A stretch of 64,000 bases of DNA. It comes from the human T2T-CHM13v2.0 reference genome, Homo sapiens. Below are positions 15,720-56,109 of the stretch, one piece after another. The notes beneath the pieces are model-generated. The model was not told the origin of the DNA. It did not search any database and was given only the letters and a program-made list of their open reading frames with translations. The position numbers and the translations under genes were made by a program. Each line of letters starts with the position of its first letter. Positions within the stretch are counted from its first letter, which is position 1. The DNA lies in the NCBI RefSeq assembly GCF_009914755.1, contig NC_060938.1. The stretch is one strand, 5' to 3'.

Positions 15720-18061
15720 TGTATTAGTCCAATCTCACACTGCTAATAAAGACATACCCAAGATTGGGTAATTTATAAAGGAAAAAGGTTTAATTGACTC
15801 AAAGCTCAGCATGGCTGGGAAGGCCTCAGGACACTTACAATCACTGCAGAAGGGGAAGCAAACATGCCCTCTTCACATGGTGGCAGGAAGGAGACGTGCC
15901 AAGCAAAAGTGGGAAAAGCCTCTTATAAAACAATCAGGTCTCTTGAGAACCCACTCACTTTCACAAGAACAGTAGCATGGGGGTAATTGCCCCCATGATT
16001 CAATTACTTCCCACCGGGTTCCTCCCATGACATGTGGGGATTATGGGAACTACAATTCAAGATGAGATTTGGGTGGGGACACAGCCAAACTATATCATTC
16101 CACCACTGGCTCCACCCAAATCTCATGTCCTCACATTTCAAATTACAATCATGCCCTCCCAACAGTCCCCCAAAGGCTTAACTCATTCCAGCATTAACTC
16201 AAAAGTCCGAGTCTAAAGTCTCATCTGAGACAAGGCAAGTCCCTCCTGCCTATGAGCCTGTAAAATCAAAAGTAAGTTAGTTGCTTTCTAGATACAATGG
16301 GGGTACAGACATTGGGTAAATACACCCATTTCAAATGGGAGAAATTGGCCAAAATGAAGGGGCTACAAGCCACATGCAAGTCCAAAATCCAATAGGGCAG
16401 TCGTTAAACCTTAAAGTTCCAAAATGATCTCTTTTGACTCCATGTCTCACATCCAGGTCACACTGATGCAAGAGGTGGGTTTTCACAGTCTTGGGGAGCC
16501 CTGCCCCTTGGCTTTGCAGGGTACAGCCCCAACTTCTAGCTGCTTTCACAGGCTGGCATTGAGTGTCTGTGGCTGCACATGATGCAAGCTGTTGCTGGGT
16601 CTACCATTCTGGGGTCTGAGGACAGTGGCCCTCTTCTCACAACTCCACTAGGCAGCGCCCCAGTGTGGACTCTGTGTGGGTCTCCCATCCCACATTTCCC
16701 TTCCACACTGACCTAGCAGAGATTCTCCATGAGGGCTCTGCCCCTGCAGCAAACTTCTGCTTGAGCATCCAGGCATTTCCATACATCTTTTGAAATCTAG
16801 GCAGAGGTTCCCAAGCCTCACTTCTTGATTTCTCTGCACCTGCAGGCCCAACACCATGTGTAAGCCACCAAGGCTTGGGGCTTCACCCTCTGAAGCAAAG
16901 GCCTGAGCTGTACATTGGCCACTTTTGGCCATAGCTGAGATGCAGGGCACCAAGTACCAAGACTGCACAAAGCAGCAAGGCCCTTGGCCCAGCATACGCA
17001 GCCATTTTTTTCTCCTCAGCCTCCATGTCTGTGATGGGAAGGACTACTGTAAAGATCTCTGACATGCCCTGGAGACATTTTCCCCATTGTCTTGGGAATT
17101 AACATTTGGCTTCTCTTTACTTATGCAAATATCTGCAGCTGGCTTGAATTTCTCCTCAGAAAATGGGTTTTTCTTTTCTAGCACATCACCAGGCTGCAAA
17201 TTTTCTGAACTTTTATGCTCTGCTTCCCTTTTAAACATAAATTCCAACTCCAAACCATATCTTCATGAAAGAATAAAACTGTGTGTTTTTAAGAGCACCT
17301 AAGTCACATCTTGAATGCTTTGCTGCTTAGGAATTTCTTCTGCCAGATACCCTGAATCATCTCTCTCAAGTTCAAAGTTCCACAGATCTCTAGGGCAGGG
17401 GCAAAATGCCACCAGTCTCTGTGCTAAAGCATAACAAGAGTTACCTTTGCTCTATTTCCCAACAAGTTCCTCATCTCCATCTGAGACCACCTCAGCCTGG
17501 ACTTTATTGTCCATATCACTATCAGCATTTTGGTCAAAGTCATTCAACAAGTCTCCAGGAAGTTCCAGACTTTCCCACATTTTCCTGTCTTCTTCTGAGC
17601 CCTCCAAACTGTTCCAACCTCTGCCTGGTACCCAGTTCCAAGGTCTCTTCCACACTTTTGGGTATTTTTACAGCAGTGCCCCACTACCTGGTACCAATTT
17701 ACTGTATTAGTCCATTCTCACACTGCTAATCAAGACATACCTGAGGCTGGGTAATTTATAAAGGAAAGATGTTTAATTGATTCACAGTTCAGGAGGGCTG
17801 GGGAGACCTCAGGAAACTTACAATCATGGCAGAAGGGGATACAAACACATCCTTCTTCACATGGTGGCAGGAAAGAGAAGTGCCAAGCAAGAGGGAAAAG
17901 CCCCTTACAAAACCATCAGATCTCGTGAGAAATCACTCACTATCATGAGAACATCAGCCTGATTCAATTACCTCCCACTGGGTCCCTCCCATGACTTGTG
18001 GGGATTATGAGAACTACAATTCAAGATGAGATTTGGGTGGGGACACAGCAAAACTATATCA
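15720..18061 (-). mobile_element. Full-length THE1 (MaLR): LTR 15720-16097, internal 16098-17702, LTR 17703-18061; TSD gatag; inserted into a MIR
   Basis: Two tgtattagtcc...tatca LTRs; gatag at 15715-15719 and 18062-18066; MIR halves on both sides. Confidence 0.93.
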
Positions 18062-42115: not shown

Positions 42116-42226
42116 CTTCCAAATCCTTGGGTGCTTGGGCTGGGAATCAGGTCACTATGTGCAGGGAGAAGAGAGCAGCAGAGAGGGGACACACACTCAC
42201 GACTAGAAGCTGTGTCTTCACTGAGG

Positions 42227-42232
42227 TTTATT
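42227..42232 (-). terminator. CMA1: CMA1 polyadenylation signal AATAAA
   Basis: tttatt on + strand, about 140 nt after the stop codon. Confidence 0.9.
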
Positions 42233-42373
42233 GAGAGTTCTGTGACCTGTAGGATACTTCTGGAGGCTTAGGGTTGTGGCTGAGGGACCAAGGGTAGACC
42301 AGAATGAGTGGCACACACTTTGCTGCTCAGGTCCAGTTCCAGCTTCCCTTTCAGGCTGGCTCAGGATCCAGGA

Positions 42374-42517
42374 TTAATTTGCCTGCAGGATCTGGTTGAT
42401 CCAGGGCCGGTAATGGGAGATTCGGGTGAAGACAGCAGGGGGCTTTGCATCCGACCGTCCATAGGATACGATGCCCTGGGCCACCCCAGCACACAGAAGA
42501 GGGCCCCCAGAGTCTCC
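42374..42517 (-). CDS. CMA1: CMA1 exon 5 coding part (catalytic Ser, stop)
   Basis: ctacag|GGA GAC TCT GGG GGC CCT ... GCA AAT TAA. Confidence 0.98.
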
Positions 42518-45093
42518 CTGTAGGGGGAGGAGAGAGAGAAGAAGGTGAGCCCGGGAAGTCCTCCACTCCTGTCTGCCAGCCAGCTTGGAGTCACAGTGAG
42601 ACCTAAAGTCAGACCCAGGAGGTGGAGCTCCTCACTTATACATCTAGTTCTGATGCCCCTTCTTCCTTTCTTGGGACCGTCATTCACATTCTCCACATCA
42701 CCCCATGCCCCCAGTGCAGTAGACTGGAATGGATGGTCAGAGGCTGTCTTGGACCACGGGAGGACAGCAATTCCTGTGATGCTCACCCTGTCACTGACTG
42801 ACAACCTTCTGACCCCATCTCCTTCTAAGAGCATTCTGGTCCCTGAACAGTGAGTTTTGGAGAGGAAACCTAGTTGGAGGATCACCTTAAATGCAGATTT
42901 TGTCTTCCTGGGATTGCCCACACACAGCTGAAGATTGTGGTCAAAGTCTCTGAAGTGGCTGCAGGCCTGGGGATCCATGAGTCTCAGCTTCACCTCTTGC
43001 AGAGTGTCTGAGCCCGGCTTCAACACACCTGTTCTTCCCCAGCCAGCCACCCGGCACATTCTCCCAGGTGGGACAAAGTTGAATTGTGATGGGAAGGGGA
43101 GTGTCCCCACAGCCAGGGTCAGGCTGGCTTTCTCCTTCAACTGTGAAGGGAATGAAGGACCGTCAGTCCTCGAAATGGGCTCTGGACAGTTGGAGGTGAT
43201 CAGGGAGGGACAGGGTGAGTAGCTTCATGTTATAGCCAAGTCCTAAGAAAAATTCAGGGCAATGAGGACCTGAAGGAGAAGCTTAGGAGAATGGGAAGTG
43301 GAAAGGGAGAAGAGAGGTGTTGTCACCTTTAGTAACATGATATCGTGGTGAAGAGTAGAAGTGTTATATTTTGGATGACGGAATTGCTTTATAACCTCAA
43401 GCTTCTGCCATGTGTCTTCTTCCTCTGTTATGTTATGGGCTCCAAGGGTGACTGTTATAGACCTGTTGTGAGGAAGAAGGAAGGAAAAGGAGCGACAGTG
43501 ATGGCTTGGGGTTTCTTCTGAGGTGAGCTCATTCTGAGAAAAGAGGACTAAACTCTGTCACTGGGTCGCCGGACTCTACCCATCTCCCTTTTCATGGGCC
43601 ACTTGTGGCATTTGAGGGCTCAGGCTTAACTCATGAAAGAGCTTTCTCAGGAAACAGACACAATTTCTACGACCCCTGGAATTGCTGGGGACTGAACAGG
43701 CCAGGGAGGACTCAGGGGACAGGGTTCACACTTCCTAATTCAGGGAACCCTGCATGAGGGCCAGCCCCTGAAGCAGGAGATATCAGTTAAACGGGAAAGT
43801 GGGGGTCTCATGTAGACCCTGTTCTCTGCCTCCCATAAAATGATGGGTTCAGGACCCTGAGAACTAGAGGCCAGTGTTCTTGAAAAGGCCATAGAGGAAG
43901 TGGCCCTGAGACTGGGTGGGGCCCTGAAAAGTGAGCCGTGTGTCTTGAGTTGGGTAGGGGTGAGGGGTGCTACTGCAACAAGAGGGACCTTGGACAGGAC
44001 CTCCTTTTCCTCCGAAGGGGAGCTTAGCTCACAGTGACTGAGGCTCAAGGAACTATTCAAACACAGACTAAAGTCTTTCAGCCCAAGTCTTCCCTCTCCT
44101 GAAAGTTGACAAGACCCAGGACCCCCTCTTCAGTCCCCAGTGCAGGTGTATTCCTGGATGCTACTCTGGTTGTTCATCTCCCATTTGGAGATAAATAGAC
44201 CCTGTTGTCTCACCTTCCTGCACAATGAGCAGCCGTCAGCACAAAGTTCCGTCTTATAAGGAAACCACCACAAAATTTTGAGGGACCGTTGGAAGTTACA
44301 ATTTCCAGGTAGGCCATGTAGGGGCGGGAATGTGGCTTGCATTCTGTGCCCCCGATGATCTCCCCTGGAACAGAGCACCCCAGGGTTTGAACACGGCCAT
44401 AGATACTCTCTCCAATGAATGGACAAATTGGGTTAAAGCTGAGCTAGGCTTCCCTGGAATCTCATTCTCACCCTGTGTTCCGCCCATCTTCCCTCTCCTG
44501 TCTCCTGTATTTCGTATCTTTCCCCACCCATAACCTCCCAGGTGAAATCTCATTCTTGCCTCTGCTCCATTCTGATGTTTTCATCTCAGACTTCTCCCAC
44601 TCCCACCTTGCCCTGGCCCACCCTCCTCTGTCTCTGTGTAGGACCCACTGTCCAGGTTCCTGTTTTAGATTTCTCCATAGCTCTTGAGCATGGTCACAGA
44701 GTGAGAAAGTCACAAAGTAATGGGTAGCCCTGATGCTCAGAAGATTAAGAGGACATGTCTGTTTTCCTGGGGATACCCCTTTTCCTTCCACTTGCTCTGG
44801 GCTTTTCTACAATTGAGGTGAAATTCCTTGTTCCTGGGGGCTGTCCTAGGCTGTAGAGAATGGCAGTGGGTGGGGGTGGGGGTGGGGTGGCACACATCCC
44901 AAGTGGAAATTTCCCTCTGGGACTCTTGAAGAGAGATCTTGGAACCCTGTTTAGGAGTCAGCTATTTTCAGACTAAACATCTTTGTTTCAGGAGCTGATA
45001 CTGCAGATTTCAGAGGGAAGAACCCTGATACTCACCAGCTTCAGCTCTGGAGCACAAGAGAAAGAGCAGCAGGGGGAGAGGAAGAAGCAGCAT
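42374..45093 (-). CDS. CMA1: Chymase 1 (mast cell alpha-chymase); join(45036..45093,44214..44364,43327..43462,42886..43140,42374..42517), 247 aa
   Basis: Spliced exons of 58+151+136+255+144 = 744 nt give [39 protein letters not shown]...LTAAHC...DIMLLKL...[47 protein letters not shown]. All introns are GT-AG and the triad H66/D110/S203 is present. The sequence matches human chymase as I recall it. Confidence 0.99.
42886..43140 (-). CDS. CMA1: CMA1 exon 4
   Basis: [38 protein letters not shown]...[13 protein letters not shown]|gtgat; seen in ORF 42361..43140. Confidence 0.98.
43327..43462 (-). CDS. CMA1: CMA1 exon 3 (catalytic Asp)
   Basis: caacag|G TCT ATA ACA GTC ACC CTT GGA GCC CAT ... 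GAT ATC ATG TTA CTA AAG|gtgac. Confidence 0.98.
44214..44364 (-). CDS. CMA1: CMA1 exon 2 (GE propeptide, IIGG N-terminus, catalytic His)
   Basis: ttccag|GG GAG ATC ATC GGG GGC ... GCT GCT CAT TGT GCA GGA AG|gtgag. Confidence 0.98.
45036..45093 (-). CDS. CMA1: CMA1 exon 1 coding part (signal peptide)
   Basis: ATG at 45093-45091; [19 protein letters not shown]+G, followed by phase-1 donor gtgagt. Confidence 0.98.
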
Positions 45094-45145
45094 CTTCCCA
45101 GAGAGGCTGCCTGAGCAAATGCTGGTTTTCCTTTCCAGTCTTGGG

Positions 45146-45255
45146 TTTTATAACTCCCAGAAGGCAAGAGAGGGGCAAGGCTGGTAACCACAGGAACTGC
45201 ATGGTCACGTTTTCTTCTCTCACTCTGAATTGGCTGTTTCTGATCAGAAGTTCCC
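45146..45255 (-). promoter_or_regulatory. CMA1: CMA1 proximal promoter: TATAAAA (45146-45152) and RUNX consensus TGTGGTT (45186-45192)
   Basis: TATA box about 53 nt upstream of the ATG; RUNX motif read directly. Confidence 0.85.
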
Positions 45256-46583
45256 CTAGAATCACCCAGTGTTTTTCTAGAAAGGAACTTGAGCCCTGAA
45301 CTCCCAAGTGCTGGCTTCTCAGATGTACCCTCAACTATGGTGACTTTTCTGGAGTTGGGGGCAGGAAATGGAGGGACCATGTTTTTCTTTCCCAATTAGG
45401 GCAGCTTGTGAAAGGCCCACTGAACGTTCAGTGCAAAGACTTTTATGGCTATGTTCCATAGTCAGAAATGCATATTGCAGAGTCCCAGTGCATGCACATA
45501 TGTATGTGTGAGTATGTAAGCACAAATTAAAGGTTTCAGGAAACAATCTTTATCTTAACCATGTGCAGTGTTTTCTGTTAGTTTCCATTCCACTCCACTC
45601 CACTCCATTCCACTACACGTCAAAACTTGAGCAACAACCCCATTTAAATGATAATTCCTTGTAATTTGAAAAACATTGACCTGGATCTCTCTCCTCCTCT
45701 GAACCACATGTTTTTGACAGAAGAGAGATCCAAGGAGGGTAGATGTGGGAAAAGAACAGACCCTAGGACAGAACTTTATGCAAAGAGCAATTGGGATTGG
45801 AATTAGCATTTTCTGAGAGTCTAGGCGTATCATATATTGTCACAACTCTTAGATATATTATTACTTTCACGGCAACCCTATCAATATGTATTACCATTAT
45901 GATCATTATCATGTCATGATAGTCAATTTTTTAAATCAGCTATCATAGCTTATGGTTCAGAAATAGATTTTCCTGATATCAAATCAAGGTCCCTTTCTGC
46001 TCTAGCACTAGAGAGAAATAGAGGAATAGAGTCCTGCCAATGTGCAGGGGAAGTAAAGATGTAGAAGGGTGTTTGCTCCAGAGAGGTTGGGGTTTCCTAC
46101 TGTTGCATTAAGAATCAAGCTTTCCACAACAACCTGGGGACACACCATTACTGTCACTTTACAATTGTAGAATTGATACTCAGACCCATTAACATGACAA
46201 AGATCACACACCTTATAATATCAGAAGTGGGTTTCAAGCACATAGCTTTTATTTTCCCTGGACTTACAGAAAGCAGTCCACATGGTGGACTGTCATTTCT
46301 CTTGGAGATTTATAAGGCATTTAGTTCAAAGACGGGGATGAGTAGTGTATAAGTGCCTTTCCCAAATCATCTCACTATGCCCTTGGTCTCAGGTTGGGCT
46401 TGTGACCAGAGTGATCCACTCCTTAGTATATATTGGCCAGGTCCTCTGTTGCTTTTAACTTAATTTCCCAAGTTCTACCTACAGCTCTAACTCTCTCTAG
46501 AATAAGACATTTAAACACATCCGTAATGTCTTTTCAAATCTGGTCTTCTTAAGTGTCCTTGTACCACTTTCTTCACTCTCTCG

Positions 46584-46766
46584 GGGGTTGCCAGAGAATA
46601 TTCAGAATGCCCAGTTAAATTTGTATTTCAGATGAACAACAAATCATTTTTTAGTTAAGTATGTCCAAATATTGAATGGGACACACTAATACTAAAAAAT
46701 TGTTGTTTATCTAAAATTTGAATTTAACTGGAATCCTGTATTTTTTATTTGCCAAAGTTGGCAACT
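46584..46766. mobile_element. MER53 (palindromic hAT MITE) in the CMA1 upstream region
   Basis: gggttgccag...ccagttaaatttg / aatttaactgg...ttggcaactc long inverted arms. Confidence 0.8.
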
Positions 46767-49075
46767 CTTCTCTGGGCATTTCACCATTAACAGAACAGAA
46801 GAGAATCCGGAGCTGGAGAACTCTTGTCTTGTGGTCTTACATCAGTTAGACCAAAAAATCAGAGGCTTAAACAAATCAAAGCTGTTTGCTTTCACTGATA
46901 TAATTAGAAATTGAGAGGCAGGTAGTCTGGGGCTAGTAAGACAGCTCCACAGCATCAAGATTCAGATCCACCAAGACTTAAGTTTTGCTTCACCTGCCTG
47001 GCTGAGGGTGAGGAAATGGAATAGGTATAGCCCCAGTCAGGGGACCAATTTCAGAAACGAGGACTGCACTATCTGCTCACATTTCCTTCTTTGCTTTGTC
47101 ATATGTATACCTGTGTATTTTAAGAGATTTCCTTTTTCTCTTTCTTCTTCCCCCTTTGGTTATTTTATATATAGCATGTTGGTAGTGAACTTTATGGTTT
47201 AGGGTACAGTTATCAAGTTGGGAGACTAGAGAATATCAAATTGAAAATGTGACCAAACTATTGTTGGAGCAGGTATCACCTAGAGACACAGTACTTGAAG
47301 TTAAAAGCAGTAACTGTTGAGACTGGGTTATTTCAGTTCTGCTGAGTCAAGTCTAATTTTCCTTTATATAAAAGATAGTAAAGATTATGTTCAGTGGGAT
47401 AATTTTTGTTCTTGGAAACTTTAAGTGTGGCAAAAGAATGAATGTTGATGTGGGGCAACCAAGTGATGGATTGTAGTGGACATTTTCCATTTATATGGCT
47501 CCTTAATGTCTCTGGAACACCCTTCCTGTATTAGAGGAATTCCCAATGATAACTTTGCCTTACTAAGGTAGAATCCACAAACTTCCATTCCCAGTTTCTC
47601 TTGCATTTAGGTCATGTGACTTAGACTCTGTTAATCAGATAAAGGGGTGTACAATTTGACTTAGAAGGGAGTAACATGAGGGAGCTATTATCATGTGGAA
47701 TTAATTCTTCTAGTGAGGGTGACTGGTAGAGGGGTCAGGGTTTGTGGAAATAATTGATGATTCAGATATCCAGTGCTGCCTAGAATGTTTGGGCCAAACA
47801 AGTGGTAGTAGGACCTTTGCTGCACAGTGTTATGGTGTATTTTGGACATTGCTTCTGGCTAGTTTGACTCTAGACATAATCCTACAGCATCTTGGGAAGC
47901 AGCTGTTGAGTATGTATAAGAAAGGACTTACTAACAATCTGTTGCTATAAAATAAATGTGTGATTAGTGGAGGTAAGTGATTTCTCATTGCGGCAGATAC
48001 TCAAGTAGAGGTTGAATCAAGTCTTGATTCACAGTTAGTAGGACAGAAAATTTGGGCCTGATGTAGAAGCACTGGCATTTAAATAATGGCAATGATTCCT
48101 TAGTAACTATAATGCAGAGGGATCATTCCTTCTCTGAGTTTCCGAACATTGTATTAACTGTGCTAGTATTCACTTTGACATTTAAGGCATGCAGTTTGCT
48201 CTGCAGTTAGATGGGGTGAGTTTGAATCTTGGTTCTGCCACTTAGCTATGTGTCTGAACTTAGGAAAAATTTTAAAGTTCTCAGCCTTAGTTACTGCATC
48301 CATAAAATATGAAGAATGATACAGTACAAGGATTTTTTTCAGAATTAAATATGATGCTCAATGTGAAATGCCACATGATTGGTTCTTAATAAACGTTGGT
48401 TTTATTCCTTTGTGTTTTACCTTGTGCTGCCATATCACCACTTGATGGATAATTGATAGATATATCCTCATTGGCTATAATTTTTTTGATGAAAGAATAA
48501 ATCTTATACTTCCTCTAAATTCTCCTAAACACATTACAGATTAACATCTGTTATGGAATTTGGTTATTTCATGCTTTGCATGTAACATCTTTTTTCTATT
48601 CATTCATGTGCTGCCAGGCTGTTTATTATTCTCTGAGTAATGACTGTGTCTTTCTTGATTGAGCATTTCTATGCAACTTGTTTTAACTCTCGAGTTGGCA
48701 GGTATAAAACACCTAGAAACTTTTGTTGCAGTCTCTTCTAAAGAACTCCTGTGGGTCAGGGACAGCTGATGGCATGGGCTCATACTGAGCAGTAGTGCAG
48801 TGGAGCAGACAGAGTACATCCTTCATGGCACTGGCAGATTTTCCTGAAGCAGGCTGGAGCTCACTCTGTGTTTGCCCTCGCAATAAGTCCTGCCTGTTTC
48901 TATAGTTTCTGAATGACCAAGTTTTTCTGAATTTAAGGTTTATGTTTAATAGCTGCTGGCTTACATTAAACATCTATAAAGCAATTTAAGAGAATTACTT
49001 TCAAATTGATTTATTTTACGATACTCTTGCCTTCACTCCTAACACAATAGCTCACTTTTGAATTACTGCACTCTG

Positions 49076-49215
49076 CACAATATTTCTGAGTGGACAGTGT
49101 ATCCAGGAGAATGAGATATGGAGAGATCCTTGGAGATTATTCCCAGTGTTGGGGCAGGAGGAAGATTTCTCAGCGTGTGTGTCCTTATTTCTTTTCCAGG
49201 CTCTTCAGCACAAAC
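49076..49215 (-). pseudogene. Relic exon 5 (very degenerate)
   Basis: tttttag|GTT TGT GCT GAA GAG CCT (eroded GDSGGP) ... ctccaaggatct...ATC TCA TTC TCC TGG ATA (PP..ISFSWI). The Trp codon is 110 nt from the acceptor versus 114 in CMA1. Confidence 0.35.
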
Positions 49216-49509
49216 CTAAAAACATTTTGCTTTTTTAAGGGGTTCTTCCTAAGATTTCTCTTTCCACTCACCATTTCTGCAATGGGCTAATATTAAAGTA
49301 GGGAGAGTCTCTGAGGGTGCCCTTTATCATAAGTTTGGGCAAAGCTCTTTATGTGGATGGTTTCTGCTGTAGTCTCTGAGATGCTACTGCTCCCATTATC
49401 ACTCTCAGCTTCACTCAGGCAGGCCTACTCCTTGGGTCATCATCTTCTGTAACACTGTAGCCATGATGATTTTATCTTTTCTGTGTGGGCTATGGGGGAG
49501 GTTGATAAG

Positions 49510-49782
49510 GCAACAACTATTCTTTCCATCCCAGGGGTCCACAAGATGCTTGTTTAATCTGTGGTTGGTGTCAGTGGTGGAGCTGGTGCTCACAGGCTCA
49601 GCCCTGATCCTCATCATCTTCACTTCTGGTTCCTGTGAGCCAAGCTGTTAGAGTATAGTTCCTGGATTGAAAGGAACTATACTCTAGTTGTATTCTAGAT
49701 GGTCCTGCAATGGCTTGATAGCTCCTTACTGGGATTACCATATTGTGGGATTTCTATATTGTGCTGGGGCCTTAAAGGGTGT
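49510..49782 (-). pseudogene. Relic exon 4 (degenerate)
   Basis: ag|+3 codons+AAG GCC (KA, 49773), CCC AGT AAG (PSK, 49733), ATC AAG CCA (IKP), GAA GTG AAG ATG (EVKM, 49626), TGT GAG CAC CAG CTC CAC CAC (CEHQLHH, cf. CESDLRHY), DPWDGKNS (49539, cf. DPEIKKTS). Confidence 0.45.
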
Positions 49783-49930
49783 CTCATTGGTCTAGTCATT
49801 CTTGGTTGCAAGGAGATTCCTTAGTCTCTTGAAGGGCAGATGCTGCCCAGGATGCAGGTATGGTTTTGGTAAGGCTGATGGGGTAGATAGTGTGAAAGGG
49901 CAAATTATGTGAGACTCATGAGGCAGGTGG

Positions 49931-50086
49931 TATCAACAGCATGTGTCCATGGCTACAGGGTAGAGCCAACCCTGCAGGGGTCGTTTAGGGATTTTTCAAT
50001 AGTGCTTCTTTCCAACCACATTTGGAAGCAAGGGCAGAGGGAGCAAATCAGGACAACGGACAGCTCCCAGCCCTTCACTTTTTTTT
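49931..50086 (-). pseudogene. Relic exon 3 (degenerate)
   Basis: ttcccag| + 16 nt + CTG GGA GCT (LGA; same 16-nt offset as CMA1 exon 3). ATC CCT AAA CGA CCC (IPKRP, cf. GZMB IPVKRP) at 49992-49978. GACACATGCTGTTG at 49947-49934 equals GACATCATGCTGTTG (DIMLL) minus one base. Confidence 0.55.
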
Positions 50087-50409
50087 CTGGGAAATGCCAG
50101 GTTTTTCAAAGAAAATGAGTTGGCCTCTAGGGAAGGTAAGGAGGATGGAAATGCAGGTCAAGAATGGCAAGATACAGGGGGAGTGGACATGGAGAGATGT
50201 ATTAATAAATTGCATATTGATTATGTATTAACTGGGATCCCTGTTAGGAAACTCCTCTCCCCCAACCTTTTTTCCCCCCTGAAACTTGAAGTTCTTTTTC
50301 AGAATTTCAAACATTCCCTTTAGTGATCTTTAATATTACCAAAGGTGGAGAAATCAATATTTCACTATCAGTTAATGACTGAAGTAAGGAAGTGGCACTG
50401 GCTGCTCAG

Positions 50410-50553
50410 GGAATGGGTCAGTGGGCAGTAGAAATGGCAGCCACACAAACAGGCCTTCAATGTGTGTTTTTAAGGGGACTTTTTGGGCATACCCCATCAC
50501 CTAAGTGCATCCCTAAAGTCTGGTCAGGAGCACAGGTCTTCTGTATGACCTGG
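50410..50553 (-). pseudogene. Relic exon 2 (degenerate)
   Basis: GGT CAT ACA GAA GAC CTG TGC TCC TGA CCA GAC reads GHTEDLCS*PD versus GHEAKPHSRPY. ACT GCC CAC TGA (TAH*, for AAHC) lies 97 nt after the Y-equivalent codon (93 in CMA1). It is followed after exactly 8 nt by ctgag, a mutated gtgag donor. Confidence 0.5.
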
Positions 50554-51040
50554 CTACAGAAAAAAATGGCTTCTCTCTGGTTATGGTCCATGTTAATTTT
50601 TTTAAAATTGAGAATCATAACATACATACATAAGAGTGAAAAAAATTTTTTCTTCAAATGAATAATTATAAATTAAACATTCATGGAATCATTAACCAGC
50701 TTGATTTGTCATTTCCTTTAGACATTTCATCATGTCCTTATCCTGCCCTCTTCAATATGAGAGAAGGGCCATGGATAAGAATTGGGGGCATTTTGAGCAA
50801 AGCAGGTTAAGGGAAACTTCCAAAGCCAGTTTCTGATTCTTTCTCCACCCTACTCTTCTTGTCCCTGGGACACTGTCATCAACTGTGGAAAGTATATGAC
50901 TCTTCTAGGTATAGCTCTCCCTTTGGAACATATGCAAAGATATCCTGCAGCATTATTTTAGGCTCTTCTCTGACCCAGGTTAATGATTTTGGAATAGGGG
51001 CTGAGGACTTACAGGACAGGAAGTTACACCCTAGACTCAC

Positions 51041-51095
51041 CAGATGTGGCTTCAGGAGGCAAGAGGAAGACCAGCAAAATGATCAGGGCCTGCAT
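51041..51095 (-). pseudogene. Relic exon 1: signal peptide MQALIILLVFLLPPEATS+G
   Basis: gggaaaATG CAG GCC CTG ATC ATT TTG CTG GTC TTC CTC TTG CCT CCT GAA GCC ACA TCT G|gtgagt. This is 18 codons + 1 nt, the exon-1 architecture of CTSG, GZMB and rodent Mcpt genes. Confidence 0.88.
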
Positions 51096-51158
51096 TTTCC
51101 CTGCGACATTGCCCATACTGACCATGGCTAGTTCTGTCACCCCTTCACTGGGCCCCGC

Positions 51159-51270
51159 TTTTATAGCCCTAGAAGTAGAAGAAAGGGGATGGCTTGAAGC
51201 CACAGAAACCACCTGATCTCATTTCTGTCTTTCATGCTGGCATGGTTATCTTCCTCATCAGAAATTCTCA
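51159..51270 (-). promoter_or_regulatory. Relic promoter homologous to the CMA1 promoter (TATAAAA 51165-51159; RUNX-like TGTGGCT; GAGGAAGATAA ETS/GATA at 51246-51256)
   Basis: tttctgtggcttcaagccatcccctttcttctacttctagggctataaaa versus CMA1 ttcctgtggttaccagccttgcccctctcttgccttctgggagttataaaa: 39 of 52 columns identical by manual alignment. Confidence 0.85.
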
Positions 51271-51427
51271 TGACTCTACTCTCTGCTCTGGGAGTGTAGA
51301 AGTTGTGGTGAGTTCTCAAGAGTCCTAGGATGAGGGATGCACACTTGTCACTCAGAAAAGCTCTCTAGAAGTAGGTAGTAGCATGCATGGAGGGGGGAGT
51401 TTTAGGTGCTGTAGCACCCATTCTAAG

Positions 51428-51647
51428 CAGGGATTAGGGAACTTTTCTGTCAATCACCAGGTAGGAAGTACTTTCAACTTTGAGAGCCAAATGGTCTCTG
51501 TGGCAACTATTCAACTCTGCTGTGTAACACAAAAGCAACCATAGACAATTTGTAAACCCTGGATGTGAACATGTTGCAGTAAAACTTCATTTACAAAGGG
51601 AAGTGGGAGGCTGATTTGGCCTGCAGACCATAGTTTGCCAGACCCTG
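51428..51647 (+). mobile_element. MER58A (hAT-Charlie MITE)
   Basis: caggg...ggtctctgtggcaactattcaactctgc...gatttggcctgcagaccatagtttgccagaccctg. Confidence 0.8.
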
Positions 51648-52859
51648 ATCTAGGTATCAGCCCTTCTTTCAATTCTAATAATCAGAAGAAAGGAATGTGG
51701 TGGTGAGAGGAGGAAGGAAAAAGGGAGAATTTATTTTTTCAAAATTTTTCTTTCTTTCTATATTTTTATTGAAACATAATTCACATACCATAAAATTACC
51801 CTTTGAAAATATACAATTCAGTGCCTTTAGCAAACTTACAAGGTTGTGCAACCATCAACACTATTTAATCTAGGACATTTTCATCACCCCATAAAGAAAC
51901 CTGTATTCATGAGTAGTCACTTCCATTGTCCACCTCCCCACAACCCCTGGCAACAAATAATCTACTTTGTCTCTATGTATTTTGCCTATTCTGGACATAA
52001 ATGGAATTATATAATATTTGGCTTATTATGTCTGGATTCTTTCACCAAAAATAAAGGGTGAATTTACAATGTGTTTGGCACTGCTAGGACTTTACATGTA
52101 TCTTCTCATTTAATCTTTATTAACAGTCTTTTGGGGTTAGTATTATTATACACAATTATGAAGCACTCAGTGGAAGTTCAGAATGTCACATAGCAGCACA
52201 GCCAAAATTTAATTTGTCTGGTTCTGAAACTCATACTTTTTCTATTCCACTAATTTGAGTAATAAGGGTTGTGGGAGGAAGAGTTAGTCCAATGAATGGA
52301 GAAAAAAATGGAATGTATAAAGGAGAATATTTGTGTTCTCTGGAGGGGTTGGGGTAACCCACTTGTGCATTGAGAGTCACACCTGGCTTGAGAATAAATT
52401 GATACCTGCAGCTGTCATTATTTGAAATTATCCTGGACTCTCATTACTTTATGTGCCACTGAGGAAGAATAAAATTGTTCTAAATTAAACAATAATGTGT
52501 CATTAATTATCAGGTTCATTTCTGTTGTGAAGAGGTTAAAATGAGAAATATTGTGCATCTTTTAACCTATGACACATGGTAGAGTTCAGGTGTGTGCTTT
52601 ATCTCATTCACCCTCAAATCAACCCTGAGAAATATTATTGTGTTTATTTTACAGATGAAGAAACTGAGTCTCAGATAATTTGAATCACTCGAAAAAACTT
52701 TGTAAGCTATAAACATAACTAGGTATCGAACTTATATCCAATTGCATGATCTTTCCTTACATCATCCTGCTGTCCTGGACTGTAGAAGCAGAGCAAAACC
52801 AACAACAAACCATTTCCCTCAATTTTATAAGGCACAATCCATATTATTATGATTTTCAA

Positions 52860-54322
<1,463 letters not shown>

Positions 54323-54510: not shown

Positions 54511-56109
54511 CCTTATTTTGCTTTTTTGCTTCCATTGCAGATTCATTGCAGATCCGAGCACAGTTGGGTTTATGTTGTTTCCTGCTCTGTCTTACCTCCT
54601 TTCACCAGTCTCCCCGTTTATTCAGTGTTCATTCTAAGCAGTCCTTAAATCATCCCTTTCCCATGGGTTTGGGTAGAGACCCTTAAATCTGGGATAGTTC
54701 TTTCGTTAAACCTTGTGATGCTGCCTGTCCCTCTATCAGCTCTCAGCATTGGCAAGGCCAGCAATGGAAAGTTCCCTGCATCTTAGAATCAAATCTATCA
54801 ATGGTGATCTCATATCTGGTGGGATTTAGAAGAAGTCTGTTATGTCACAAACTGTCCTTTTCACATGCTTACATGAAACTCATTCGATTTGTGGTTGTTG
54901 CCAGGAATGGAGGCAGCCAACTCCTGAGGCAGTGTGGCAGGAGTCAGAGGGCCAAGCCTCAAAGATTCTTTTATGCGCCCCCCCTTATGTGTTTTCAGTT
55001 AGAGTGAGTACTCCCTTAATTGAGGGACTACTCAGGACTTCTGAGTAGTCCTGGATTTAGCCCTCCAGGATCTGAAATCAATGTTGTCCCAGATAATGAT
55101 TCTGCCTTTCATTTGCTCTTTTTTCCTGTATTTCCTTATCTCTTAACACATACATCCAGGAAAAACTTTCTCCTTCCCCTAGAAGTTATGCACAACTGAC
55201 ACAGTTTTGAACATTTGGCTAGTTTATTGATGCTGCCATAGGGAAGTGCTCTAAGTATCAAGATCTCTTGTGAAAGACTGATTTTTCAGTCCCTGTAAGG
55301 GGAATGTCGTAAAGAGAAAGGAGCGGTGAATTTCTCAGGACAAATGTCCCTGATTAACAGCAAATATTACATTGTTGAGACTTAGGAAAGGGTACATCTT
55401 TTTCCTACAAAAGCCTTATTCACACCATGCATTTGGGAACGAGGTGAAGTAAGTATTAAATACGTAGTTAAGAGCTCTGGAATCAGACTGCATTGGAATC
55501 CTGGTAGCACCCTTTATCAGCTTTGTGACTTTGGGTGCATTTCTTTATCTTTCTTAGCTCCCCACTCCACATCTGTAAAATGGGCTTAATGATAGTGAGG
55601 ATTAGATATTTTTTGGGGAAAGCATCAGGCATAGTAAGTACTCAAAGTTAGTTATTAATATTGACATTATTAGCCCCCAAGATCACTAACCTCTTCCAAG
55701 AGTTTGTGAACCAGAATTGTCTTCTTTTAAGTTATTCCAGGACTCTAAAAGGCCAAATAAATAAAAAGAGGACCTCTCAGCACTTGGAACAGTCTTCCAC
55801 CTGCCTCAATCCTTATCAGAGGGATTCTGGGAGGCACCACTCTGTTCCCAGCCCCTACTGTGAGAAGCAGTGGTTCTGTGCCCTGGGGTTTCCCAGCCTT
55901 GTGAAAATGATAACATCCTTTGTGTGTTACGCTGGGGCAGTTAGTTGCATCCTCATTTTGTGCTGTGGGACCTCACGTGCCACTATTTCTGTGTATTCTT
56001 GCAGTTGCTCAGCTTCCCCTAATTTTTATAACCTTTTCTGTATGGCCTGGGTTCCTTGAGAACCACCTGATACATGACTGGCACTATCTCACCCAGCCTC
56101 AACCTTCTA

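What the first reader, a model, noticed from the sequence alone, without database searches (positions are those of the whole stretch)
51035..51270. Promoter and exon 1 of the fossil gene are far better preserved than its other exons: possible exapted regulatory element
Seen: 39 of 52 columns of the TATA-proximal segment match the CMA1 promoter, and similarity continues to about 51270 (gagaatttctgatgag versus gggaacttctgatcag). TATAAAA, a RUNX-like site, adjacent ETS+GATA motifs (GAGGAAGATAA), an open hydrophobic signal ORF and a perfect G|GTGAGT donor survive, whereas exons 2-5 carry many indels and stops. In-frame upstream ATGs extend the ORF (MVSMGNVAGK-MQAL...). Inference: the asymmetry could reflect retained function as a mast-cell promoter or enhancer. 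Because its phase-1 donor matches CMA1's, it could even splice onto CMA1 exon 2 (acceptor before 44364) to give a chymase with an alternative signal peptide (...ATS-G-E-IIGG, in frame).
Basis: partly seen in the sequence, partly recalled or inferred. Interest (0 to 1): 0.8.

Follow-up and report, generated by a model that had tools for sequence, protein, structure and literature searches.

The report
Stub of a lost chymase gene

Summary
A block of about 440-535 bp (window 51394-50859, minus strand) is homologous to the CMA1 promoter, exon 1 and start of intron 1. It has TATAAAA, an open signal-peptide ORF, in-frame upstream ATGs and a G|GTGAGT phase-1 donor. The encoded peptide is not CMA1-like. 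It matches the N-termini of beta-chymase-type proteins ("mast cell protease 4-like/1-like") from carnivores, bats, rabbit, rodents, hedgehog, armadillo, tree shrew and mouse lemur, at up to 19 of 27 residues. This is therefore the 5' stub of the beta-chymase gene lost in the human lineage. A 2021 review says primates have no such trace.

They are most likely deleted, not decayed. The asymmetry is then structural and is not evidence of selection.

Survival of the 5' signals is only mildly unlikely under neutral drift (about 0.04-0.5, depending on the time of death). A relative-rate test was uninformative. No annotated transcript uses the stub. Splicing onto CMA1 exon 2 would be in frame. Promoter, enhancer or alternative-exon activity is untested and unsupported, but not excluded.

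The parts
51166..51394 (-). Promoter remnant homologous to the CMA1 promoter. The strongest part is 51267-51166; the alignment is weaker and less certain upstream of about 51345.
   Evidence: nhmmer aligns CMA1 to 51394-50859, E 7.9e-22. The proximal block gives 76 of 106 identities, and 0 of 200 shuffles reach its score.
51246..51256 (-). GAGGAAGATAA, an ETS-like core beside a WGATAR (GATA) motif. It is not shared with CMA1 at the aligned position.
   Evidence: Located; alignment. Naming the binding factors is inference from recalled consensus motifs. Binding was not tested.
51199..51204 (-). TGTGGC, a RUNX-like site aligned with CMA1's TGTGGTT (45192-45186). It differs from CMA1 at the sixth base.
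   Evidence: The RUNX consensus is recalled, not tested.
51159..51165 (-). TATAAAA box, in register with CMA1's TATAAAA at 45152-45146.
51096..51125 (-). Leader with two in-frame upstream ATGs (51125, 51116). The second gives MGNVAGK-, matching the 'MGxxAGKM' extension annotated in beta-chymase-type proteins of many orders.
51041..51095 (-). Exon 1 coding part: 18 codons plus 1 base, a beta-chymase-type signal peptide, open.
   Evidence: tblastn hits with 31 of 40 beta-type queries at E<=0.1, best 19 of 27. Frameshift-tolerant score 65 against a null maximum of 42, 0 of 60 shuffles. Mean BLOSUM62 score 59 against beta N-termini (n=40) and 30 against alpha (n=64).
51035..51040 (-). GTGAGT splice donor, phase 1, identical in form to CMA1's donor at 45035-45030.
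50859..51034 (-). Remnant of the start of intron 1, alignable to CMA1 intron 1. Homology fades by about 50900-50859.
   Evidence: 53 of 86 identities, 2 of 200 shuffles reach the score. nhmmer alignment.
45300..50858 (-). Stretch between the stub and the CMA1 promoter, where exons 2-5 would be expected. No recognisable protease exon. It contains the RefSeq silencer 49968-50168 (hub table).
   Evidence: Searches are all negative at control level.
49020..49143 (-). Weak exon-2-like match, judged to be chance. Listed so that it is not mistaken for a remnant.
   Evidence: 9 of 40 beta queries at E 0.004-0.097. HMM i-E 0.08. 18 of 60 shuffled queries score as high. Equal E-values occur at unrelated places on the other strand. 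No DNA similarity to CMA1 exon 2.
44214..44364 (-).
   Evidence: Hub annotation. The in-frame join was computed.

Best explanation
Window 51394-50859 (minus strand) is the 5' stub of a beta-chymase gene: promoter, exon 1 and the first roughly 180 bp of intron 1. That gene is the orthologue of the 'mast cell protease 4-like/1-like' (Cma2-type) genes that sit next to the alpha-chymase gene in other placental mammals.

In the lineage leading to humans the body of the gene (exons 2-5) was removed, most likely by deletion. This left a truncated unitary pseudogene. The stub has probably drifted without function since.

Shown: homology, beta-type identity, and absence of recognisable exons 2-5. Inferred: deletion as the mechanism, and the absence of present function.
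For: 1. Homology to the CMA1 5' end is significant and is limited to promoter, exon 1 and early intron 1.
2. The exon 1 peptide is beta-type. Best matches are hyena P0080 and the bat Molossus P0128 at 19 of 27, rabbit P0147 at 18 of 27, armadillo P0135 at 15 of 20, tree shrew P0129 at 14 of 20 and mouse lemur P0122 at 20 of 31. None of 64 alpha N-termini reaches the median beta score. Human CTSG, GZMB and GZMH give 12, 11 and 10 of 20.
3. By blastn the promoter aligns only to CMA1. By nhmmer it aligns best to CMA1 (E 7.9e-22) and far more weakly to CTSG, GZMH and GZMB (E 1e-7 to 1e-9).
4. The beta-type proteins form one clade with 100/100 support. It includes rat Mcpt1/2/3 and members from lemur, tree shrew, lagomorphs, carnivores, bats, rhinoceros, hedgehog and xenarthrans.
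5. The position fits: same strand as CMA1, on its CTSG side. Papers place the dog, cat and rodent beta genes there (passages in PMC4646688, and PMC8537139).
6. Exons 2-5 are undetectable in the window, in the 46 kb on to CTSG and on chr14 in a genome-wide search. Yet a non-coding block 4 kb upstream still gives 57% translated identity to a bat gene model.
7. The stub peptide is among the more diverged beta-type sequences, and neutral survival of its signals is not improbable.
Against: - All 5' signals are intact together. Simulated neutral survival of ATG, ORF, GT, phase, the TATA box and the exact 7-base donor is only 0.08 at divergence 0.10 and 0.04 at 0.13.
- A relative-rate count with CTSG, GZMH and GZMB as outgroups shows no excess change on the stub's lineage: 37 against 35 unique changes in 213 columns, p 0.9. 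Continued constraint would give the same result. The test is weak and the alignment poor.
- No deletion breakpoint was identified.
- No other primate genome could be examined, so the time and mode of loss are inferred.
- Only one human haplotype (T2T-CHM13) was seen.
- A weak exon-2-like match exists at 49143-49020.
Confidence: 0.72

Rival explanations
1. One reading: the stub was kept because it still works in mast cells. It would act as a promoter or enhancer for CMA1, or as an alternative first exon whose phase-1 donor splices to CMA1 exon 2. That splice would give chymase with a beta-type signal peptide.
For: TATA box, ATGs, open ORF and a consensus donor are all intact, and the join to CMA1 exon 2 is in frame. 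With exons 2-5 gone, CMA1 exon 2 is the next family acceptor downstream on the same strand. Joint neutral survival is 0.04-0.08 if the gene died early. There is no excess change relative to the CMA1 lineage. Mouse beta-chymase genes Mcpt1 and Mcpt2 are driven by GATA2 through proximal elements (passages of PMC12631159), and the stub has an AGATAA at 51251-51246.
Against: No RefSeq transcript of CMA1 reaches beyond 45123, and no RefSeq functional element covers the stub (hub table). None of the 186 family proteins retrieved joins a beta-type signal to an alpha-type mature part; 1 was flagged and is a false positive. The stub peptide is among the more diverged. The RUNX-like site differs from CMA1's TGTGGTT. 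Neutral survival is 0.2-0.5 if the loss was later. The decay-asymmetry argument fails because exons 2-5 are absent, not decayed.
Confidence: 0.13
2. The whole pseudogene is still there. Exons 2-5 lie between 50858 and 45300 but have decayed beyond recognition.
For: A weak colinear exon-2-like match at 49143-49020 (E 0.004-0.097 with 9 of 40 queries). An exon-3-like DNA match at 48629-48555 scores 16 against a shuffle maximum of 15 in 30 shuffles. No stretch of 100 bp or more is masked as repeat between 40782 and 53022 (hub table).
Against: Neither match beats fair controls: 18 of 60 and 40 of 60 shuffled queries score as high, and equal E-values occur at unrelated places. The mouse lemur has an apparently intact beta gene, so the loss postdates the primate ancestor. 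By my recalled estimate of about 0.1 substitutions per site on the human branch since then, exons would stay easy to detect. The neighbouring non-coding block is still detectable against a bat model.
Confidence: 0.08
3. The stub is a primate-lineage partial duplication of the CMA1 5' end, or of another locus member, and not a beta-chymase orthologue.
For: Its only DNA homologue within the window is the CMA1 5' end. Exon 1 also resembles CTSG, GZMB and GZMH exon 1 at about 65% over 63-81 nt.
Against: Identity to CMA1 is only 56-61% overall, too low for a duplication within primates. The peptide carries the beta-type pattern, including the upstream MGxxAGKM extension and LLPPEA, and scores like beta and unlike alpha N-termini.
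Confidence: 0.03

Closest known systems
Beta-chymase genes (rodent Mcpt1/2/4, dog and cat 'Cma2', and 'mast cell protease 4-like' models in many mammals)
   Same: Signal-peptide sequence with the in-frame upstream ATG extension. Phase-1 donor after exon 1. A chymase-type proximal promoter. A place beside CMA1 on its CTSG side, same strand.
   Different: Only promoter, exon 1 and the start of intron 1 exist in human. No protease domain is present, so it cannot encode an enzyme.
Human CMA1 (alpha-chymase) promoter and exon 1
   Same: Paralogous over about 440-535 bp. TATA box, start codon and donor are in register. 72% identity in the proximal 106 aligned bases.
   Different: A different (beta-type) signal peptide. 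A GATA/ETS motif where CMA1 has none. The RUNX-type site is altered. No exons follow it.
Truncated unitary pseudogenes, that is, genes lost in the human lineage with some exons deleted (the class is recalled from general knowledge, not tested here)
   Same: Functional orthologues exist in other mammals, including a strepsirrhine primate. A fragment remains at the ancestral place.
   Different: Here the surviving part is exactly the transcription and splicing start module, placed upstream of a compatible paralogous gene. That is what makes reuse conceivable.

Membership tests
Beta-chymase gene (orthologue remnant) | Beta-type signal peptide encoded by exon 1 | tested here: met
   31 of 40 beta-type queries hit 51116/51095-51036 at E<=0.1, best 19 of 27. 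Mean BLOSUM62 score is 59 against beta (n=40) and 30 against alpha (n=64); 0 alpha sequences reach the beta median.
Beta-chymase gene (orthologue remnant) | Place next to the alpha-chymase gene, inside the chymase locus | tested here: met
   About 6 kb upstream of CMA1 on the same strand, between CMA1 and CTSG (hub table). Papers place the dog, cat and rodent beta genes close to the alpha gene (passages). A bat fused gene model orders CTSG-like, then a block matching window 55326-55129, then beta-chymase.
Beta-chymase gene (orthologue remnant) | Mature protease domain that groups with the beta clade | tested here: not met
   No exons 2-5 are detectable. The stub is a remnant, not a gene.
Beta-chymase gene (orthologue remnant) | Orthology shown by alignment of flanking DNA with species that keep the gene | not testable with these tools
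   No mammalian genome other than the window's own is held.
Unitary (truncated) pseudogene | Functional orthologues in other species and a disabling lesion in this one | tested here: met
   The beta clade spans many orders, with apparently intact proteins including mouse lemur P0122, which shows the catalytic-site motifs. The human copy lacks exons 2-5.
Alternative promoter or first exon of CMA1 | Donor phase and reading frame compatible with CMA1 exon 2 | tested here: met
   The computed join reads ...[20 protein letters not shown]... without a stop.
Alternative promoter or first exon of CMA1 | Transcription start and splice junction seen in RNA | not testable with these tools
   No expression data are held. 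RefSeq's two CMA1 transcripts both lie within 42211-45123 (hub table). Literature searches found nothing on it.
Mast-cell enhancer | Open chromatin, H3K27ac or GATA2/MITF binding in mast cells, or sequence constraint across primates | not testable with these tools
   RefSeq functional elements in the window do not include 51035-51394 (hub table). The relative-rate count was uninformative, 37 against 35.

The most novel reading that the evidence does not exclude
Promoter capture by deletion. When exons 2-5 of the beta-chymase gene were deleted in an ancestor of humans, its intact promoter, signal-peptide exon and phase-1 donor were left upstream of CMA1. They would now serve as a second, beta-type (GATA-driven) start for chymase transcripts in some mast-cell states, or as an enhancer.
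Probability: 0.08. Interest if true: 0.7.

Novelty: new member of a known kind. Interest (0 to 1): 0.4.

Why it matters
[quoted passage not shown] They report no detectable pseudogene traces in the primate chymase locus (PMC8537139 passage; PMC4646688 and PMC6941018 passages). The stub is such a trace. Together with an apparently intact beta-type protein in mouse lemur and members in xenarthrans, bats, hedgehog, rhinoceros and tree shrew, it supports an early origin. It also suggests loss within primates by removal of the gene body.

This bears on how mouse beta-chymases are used as stand-ins for human chymase. If the stub were active, it would add a regulatory input to CMA1, a drug target in cardiovascular and fibrotic disease. 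Nothing here shows that it is active.

Tried and rejected
- Exons 2-5 with CMA1 as query: tblastn on the whole window and at sensitive settings, blastn with word size 7, and per-exon Smith-Waterman with shuffles. Only exon 3 scored marginally, 16 against a maximum of 15.
- Pfam scan of 105 stop-free minus-strand pieces, 45200-51100: 0 Trypsin hits. 7 pieces had one weak unrelated hit each.
- Profile HMMs: one built from 76 mostly alpha proteins, one from 40 beta proteins. Only exon 1 and the weak exon-2-like site appeared.
- Frameshift-tolerant alignment of whole CMA1: score 60, with 15 shuffles giving 44-69. Too permissive to use.
- Per-exon version with the beta consensus: only exon 1 is significant.
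- Exon-2-like site 49143-49020: two different frames both 'match' a low-complexity TC-rich stretch. Rejected as chance.
- A second signal-peptide-like hit at 50479-50375 (E 0.015-0.017 with 2 of 40 queries): taken as hydrophobic chance.
- Search of the 5.8-billion-protein set with the 64-aa stop-to-stop ORF: 47 candidates, none at E<=10. Weak evidence only.
- A megablast against phages was pointless and found nothing.
- Literature searches for a CMA1 upstream enhancer or alternative promoter, and for beta-chymase in lemur, bat, armadillo or tree shrew, gave nothing relevant. Only the listings were read. No supplements were consulted.
- Gene conversion from CTSG or the granzymes was rejected, because only about 65% identity over 63-81 nt is shared.

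Full report
**What is at the coordinates**

- GAGAATTTCTGATGAG at 51269-51254
- GAGGAAGATAA at 51256-51246
- TGTGGC at 51204-51199
- TATAAAA at 51165-51159
- three in-frame ATGs at 51125, 51116 and 51095
- an ORF open to G|GTGAGT, with the donor at 51040-51035

The stop-to-stop frame is 51218-51027, 64 codons.

**Is the likeness to CMA1 more than chance?**

Yes.
- blastn with short words aligns CMA1 44912-45253 to 50918-51267: 218 of 360 columns, E 5e-13. Nothing else of the CMA1 gene aligns anywhere in 45601-53000.
- Split by segment, the proximal promoter is the best part: 76 of 106 aligned pairs, score 33, and 0 of 200 dinucleotide shuffles reach it.
- The first 125 bp of intron 1 is marginal: 53 of 86, with 2 of 200 shuffles reaching the score.
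- The far promoter and deeper intron show nothing.
- nhmmer is more sensitive. It aligns CMA1 to 51394-50859 at E 7.9e-22, with high posterior from about 51345 to 50900.
- TATA box, start codon and donor are in register.

**What gene was it?**

I searched the large protein set with CMA1 exon 4 (239 proteins at E<=1e-5 among 314 candidates, 120 listed). I then searched with one of the hits, the hyena 'mast cell protease 4-like' protein P0080 (2107 proteins at E<=1e-30 among 2525 candidates, 120 listed). Together these gave 186 family proteins.

The stub's peptide (MGNVAGKMQALIILLVFLLPPEATSGE, as translated by tblastn) matches the N-termini of the beta-chymase-type proteins and not CMA1:

| Species (protein) | Identities |
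|---|---|
| Hyena (P0080) | 19 of 27 |
| Bat Molossus (P0128) | 19 of 27 |
| Rabbit (P0147) | 18 of 27 |
| Armadillo (P0135) | 15 of 20 |
| Tree shrew (P0129) | 14 of 20 |
| Mouse lemur (P0122) | 20 of 31 |

- In all, 31 of 40 beta-type queries hit it at E<=0.1.
- Its mean BLOSUM62 score is 59 against 40 beta N-termini and 30 against 64 alpha N-termini. No alpha sequence reaches the beta median.
- Human CTSG, GZMB and GZMH give 12, 11 and 10 of 20.
Annotated beta-type proteins of bats, rabbit, rodents, hedgehog, hyena, panda and lemur start with the same 'MGxxAGKM' type of extension. Several alpha-chymase models do too.
- At DNA level the stub shares only exon 1 with CTSG, GZMH and GZMB by blastn (63-81 nt, about 65%). 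By nhmmer it shares a short, much weaker promoter stretch with them (E 1e-7 to 1e-9). The promoter is therefore chymase-type.
- A maximum-likelihood tree of 52 proteins that I chose from the 186 puts all 25 beta-type rows on one side of a branch with 100/100 support. These rows include rat Mcpt1/2/3, a Mus Mcpt1, lemur, tree shrew, lagomorphs, carnivores, bats, rhinoceros, hedgehog and two xenarthrans. The other side holds 24 alpha and 3 marsupial rows.

The stub is therefore the 5' end of a beta-chymase gene, at the place where papers put that gene in dog, cat and rodents (passages read).

**Where are exons 2-5?**

I could not find them. Negative or control-level results came from:
- tblastn with CMA1 on the whole window and at sensitive settings.
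- Pfam on 105 stop-free pieces of 20 aa or more from 45200-51100: 0 Trypsin hits.
- An HMM of 76 family proteins and one of 40 beta-type proteins.
- tblastn of all family proteins.
- nhmmer with the CMA1, CTSG, GZMH and GZMB genes.
- A per-exon frameshift-tolerant alignment with the beta consensus. Exon 1 scores 65 against a null maximum of 42. For exons 2, 3, 4 and 5, 18, 40, 48 and 48 of 60 shuffled queries score at least as high as the real one.
- A search of the whole human assembly with the lemur protein, which finds on chr14 only CMA1, CTSG, GZMH and GZMB. That tool scores only the best candidates, 138 of 217 here.
- The 46 kb between the window and CTSG, which holds no further relic.

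Two weak colinear matches exist. One is exon-2-like at 49143-49020 (9 of 40 queries, E 0.004-0.097). The other is exon-3-like at 48629-48555 (DNA score 16 against a shuffle maximum of 15). I judge both to be chance:
- They fail the shuffle controls.
- Equally good E-values occur at unrelated places on the other strand.
- The exon-2-like stretch is TC-rich and 'matches' in two frames at different offsets.

**Why absence means deletion rather than decay**

- The mouse lemur keeps an apparently intact beta-type protein, so the gene was alive in the primate ancestor.
- By my recalled estimate of roughly 0.1 substitutions per site on the human branch since then, neutral exons would remain easy to detect.
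- An internal yardstick agrees. A bat fused gene model (P0012) contains a stretch between its CTSG-like and beta-chymase parts that matches window 55326-55129 at 57% translated identity, E 5e-13, despite three stops in the human reading. Non-coding DNA of this neighbourhood is thus still recognisable between human and bat. Exons 2-5, about 690 nt and far better conserved among living orthologues, would be too.

**Does the stub look selected?**

The available tests do not say so, but they are weak.
- Its 20-residue signal peptide averages 12.4 identities to 30 distinct functional beta-type peptides, against 13.7 among those. Only 3 of the 30 are more divergent.
- I ran a simple neutral simulation on the stub itself, with transitions:transversions at 2:1 and indels at 12% of substitutions. 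Results:

| Divergence | ATG + ORF + GT + phase kept | Also TATA-type box and exact 7-base donor |
|---|---|---|
| 0.06 | 0.49 | 0.23 |
| 0.10 | 0.28 | 0.08 |
| 0.13 | 0.19 | 0.04 |

- Joint survival is thus mildly surprising only if the gene died early, and the features were chosen after the fact.
- A relative-rate count with the three other paralogues as outgroup gives 37 changes unique to the stub's lineage and 35 unique to CMA1's in 213 columns (p 0.9). This is compatible with continued constraint. It is equally compatible with a short neutral phase, low power and a poor alignment.

**The chimeric-transcript idea**

- The join of 51041 to 44364 is in frame and reads ...LLPPEATS-G-E-IIGG....
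- By the recalled (-3, -1) rule, cleavage after A-T-S would leave the same Gly-Glu propeptide as CMA1. That is inference, since no signal-peptide predictor was run.
- Against use: RefSeq's two CMA1 transcripts lie within 42211-45123, and no RefSeq functional element covers the stub (hub table).
- None of the 186 retrieved proteins combines a beta-type signal with an alpha-type mature part. The 1 flagged by my pattern is a shrew alpha-chymase with an alpha-type signal.
- No expression or chromatin data can be reached from here.

**Comparison with print**

- Akula et al. [quoted passage not shown] They also state that the cat is the only non-rodent with a beta-chymase-like gene.
- The 2015 and 2019 papers from the same group (PMC4646688, PMC6941018; passages only) propose an origin at the base of placentals with loss in primates.
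- My searches for a human or primate beta-chymase remnant found no description of this stub. The library lacks most subscription journals, and I read no supplements, so this is not proof that it is unpublished.

**Verdict**

This is a real, apparently undescribed remnant of a known kind: a truncated unitary pseudogene of the beta-chymase gene. The 'decayed exons 2-5' are not there. The exaptation idea remains an untested minority possibility.

Noticed in passing
window 55129-55326, minus strand: A block about 4 kb upstream of the stub matches residues 205-270 of a horseshoe-bat fused gene model (P0012: CTSG-like part, then this stretch, then beta-chymase exons 2-5). Translated identity is 57%, E 5e-13, with three stops in the human reading. 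It may be a conserved non-coding block or an upstream exon used in bats. It also shows shared gene order.
   Followed up: partly
proteins P0122, P0129, P0135, P0152, P0123-P0128 and others: Beta-chymase-clade proteins are annotated in mouse lemur, tree shrew, armadillo, tamandua, several bats, rhinoceros, hedgehog, lagomorphs and many carnivores. A 2021 review names only rodents, cat and dog. The clade has 100/100 support in a 52-protein tree.
   Followed up: partly
window 45094-45123 (CMA1 5' UTR) compared with 51096-51125: Many alpha- and beta-chymase models start 7 codons upstream of the usual ATG with 'MG..(S/A).KM'. Human CMA1 keeps the in-frame GSLSGK codons but has TCA where the upstream ATG would be. 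The stub keeps the ATG at 51116.
   Followed up: no
window 49968-50168: The RefSeq 'silencer' element lies in the stretch between the stub and CMA1, where the body of the lost gene or its downstream spacer would have been. No relation to the stub was tested.
   Followed up: no
window 15939-16163 (+) and window-equivalent 84494-84706 (+): A repeated sequence whose translation contains 'LPP*FNY.P.G...GWGH' gives spurious weak hits to the 'PPGRMC..AGWG' part of chymases. It is a trap for by-eye or low-threshold searches for protease relics here.
   Followed up: no
proteins P0015, P0026, P0029 (felid and hyena chymase isoforms, 279-280 aa): Some carnivore CMA1 models carry an extra 32-33 residues (279-280 aa against 247) between the signal peptide and IIGG, as if an extra exon within intron 1 were used.
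   Followed up: no
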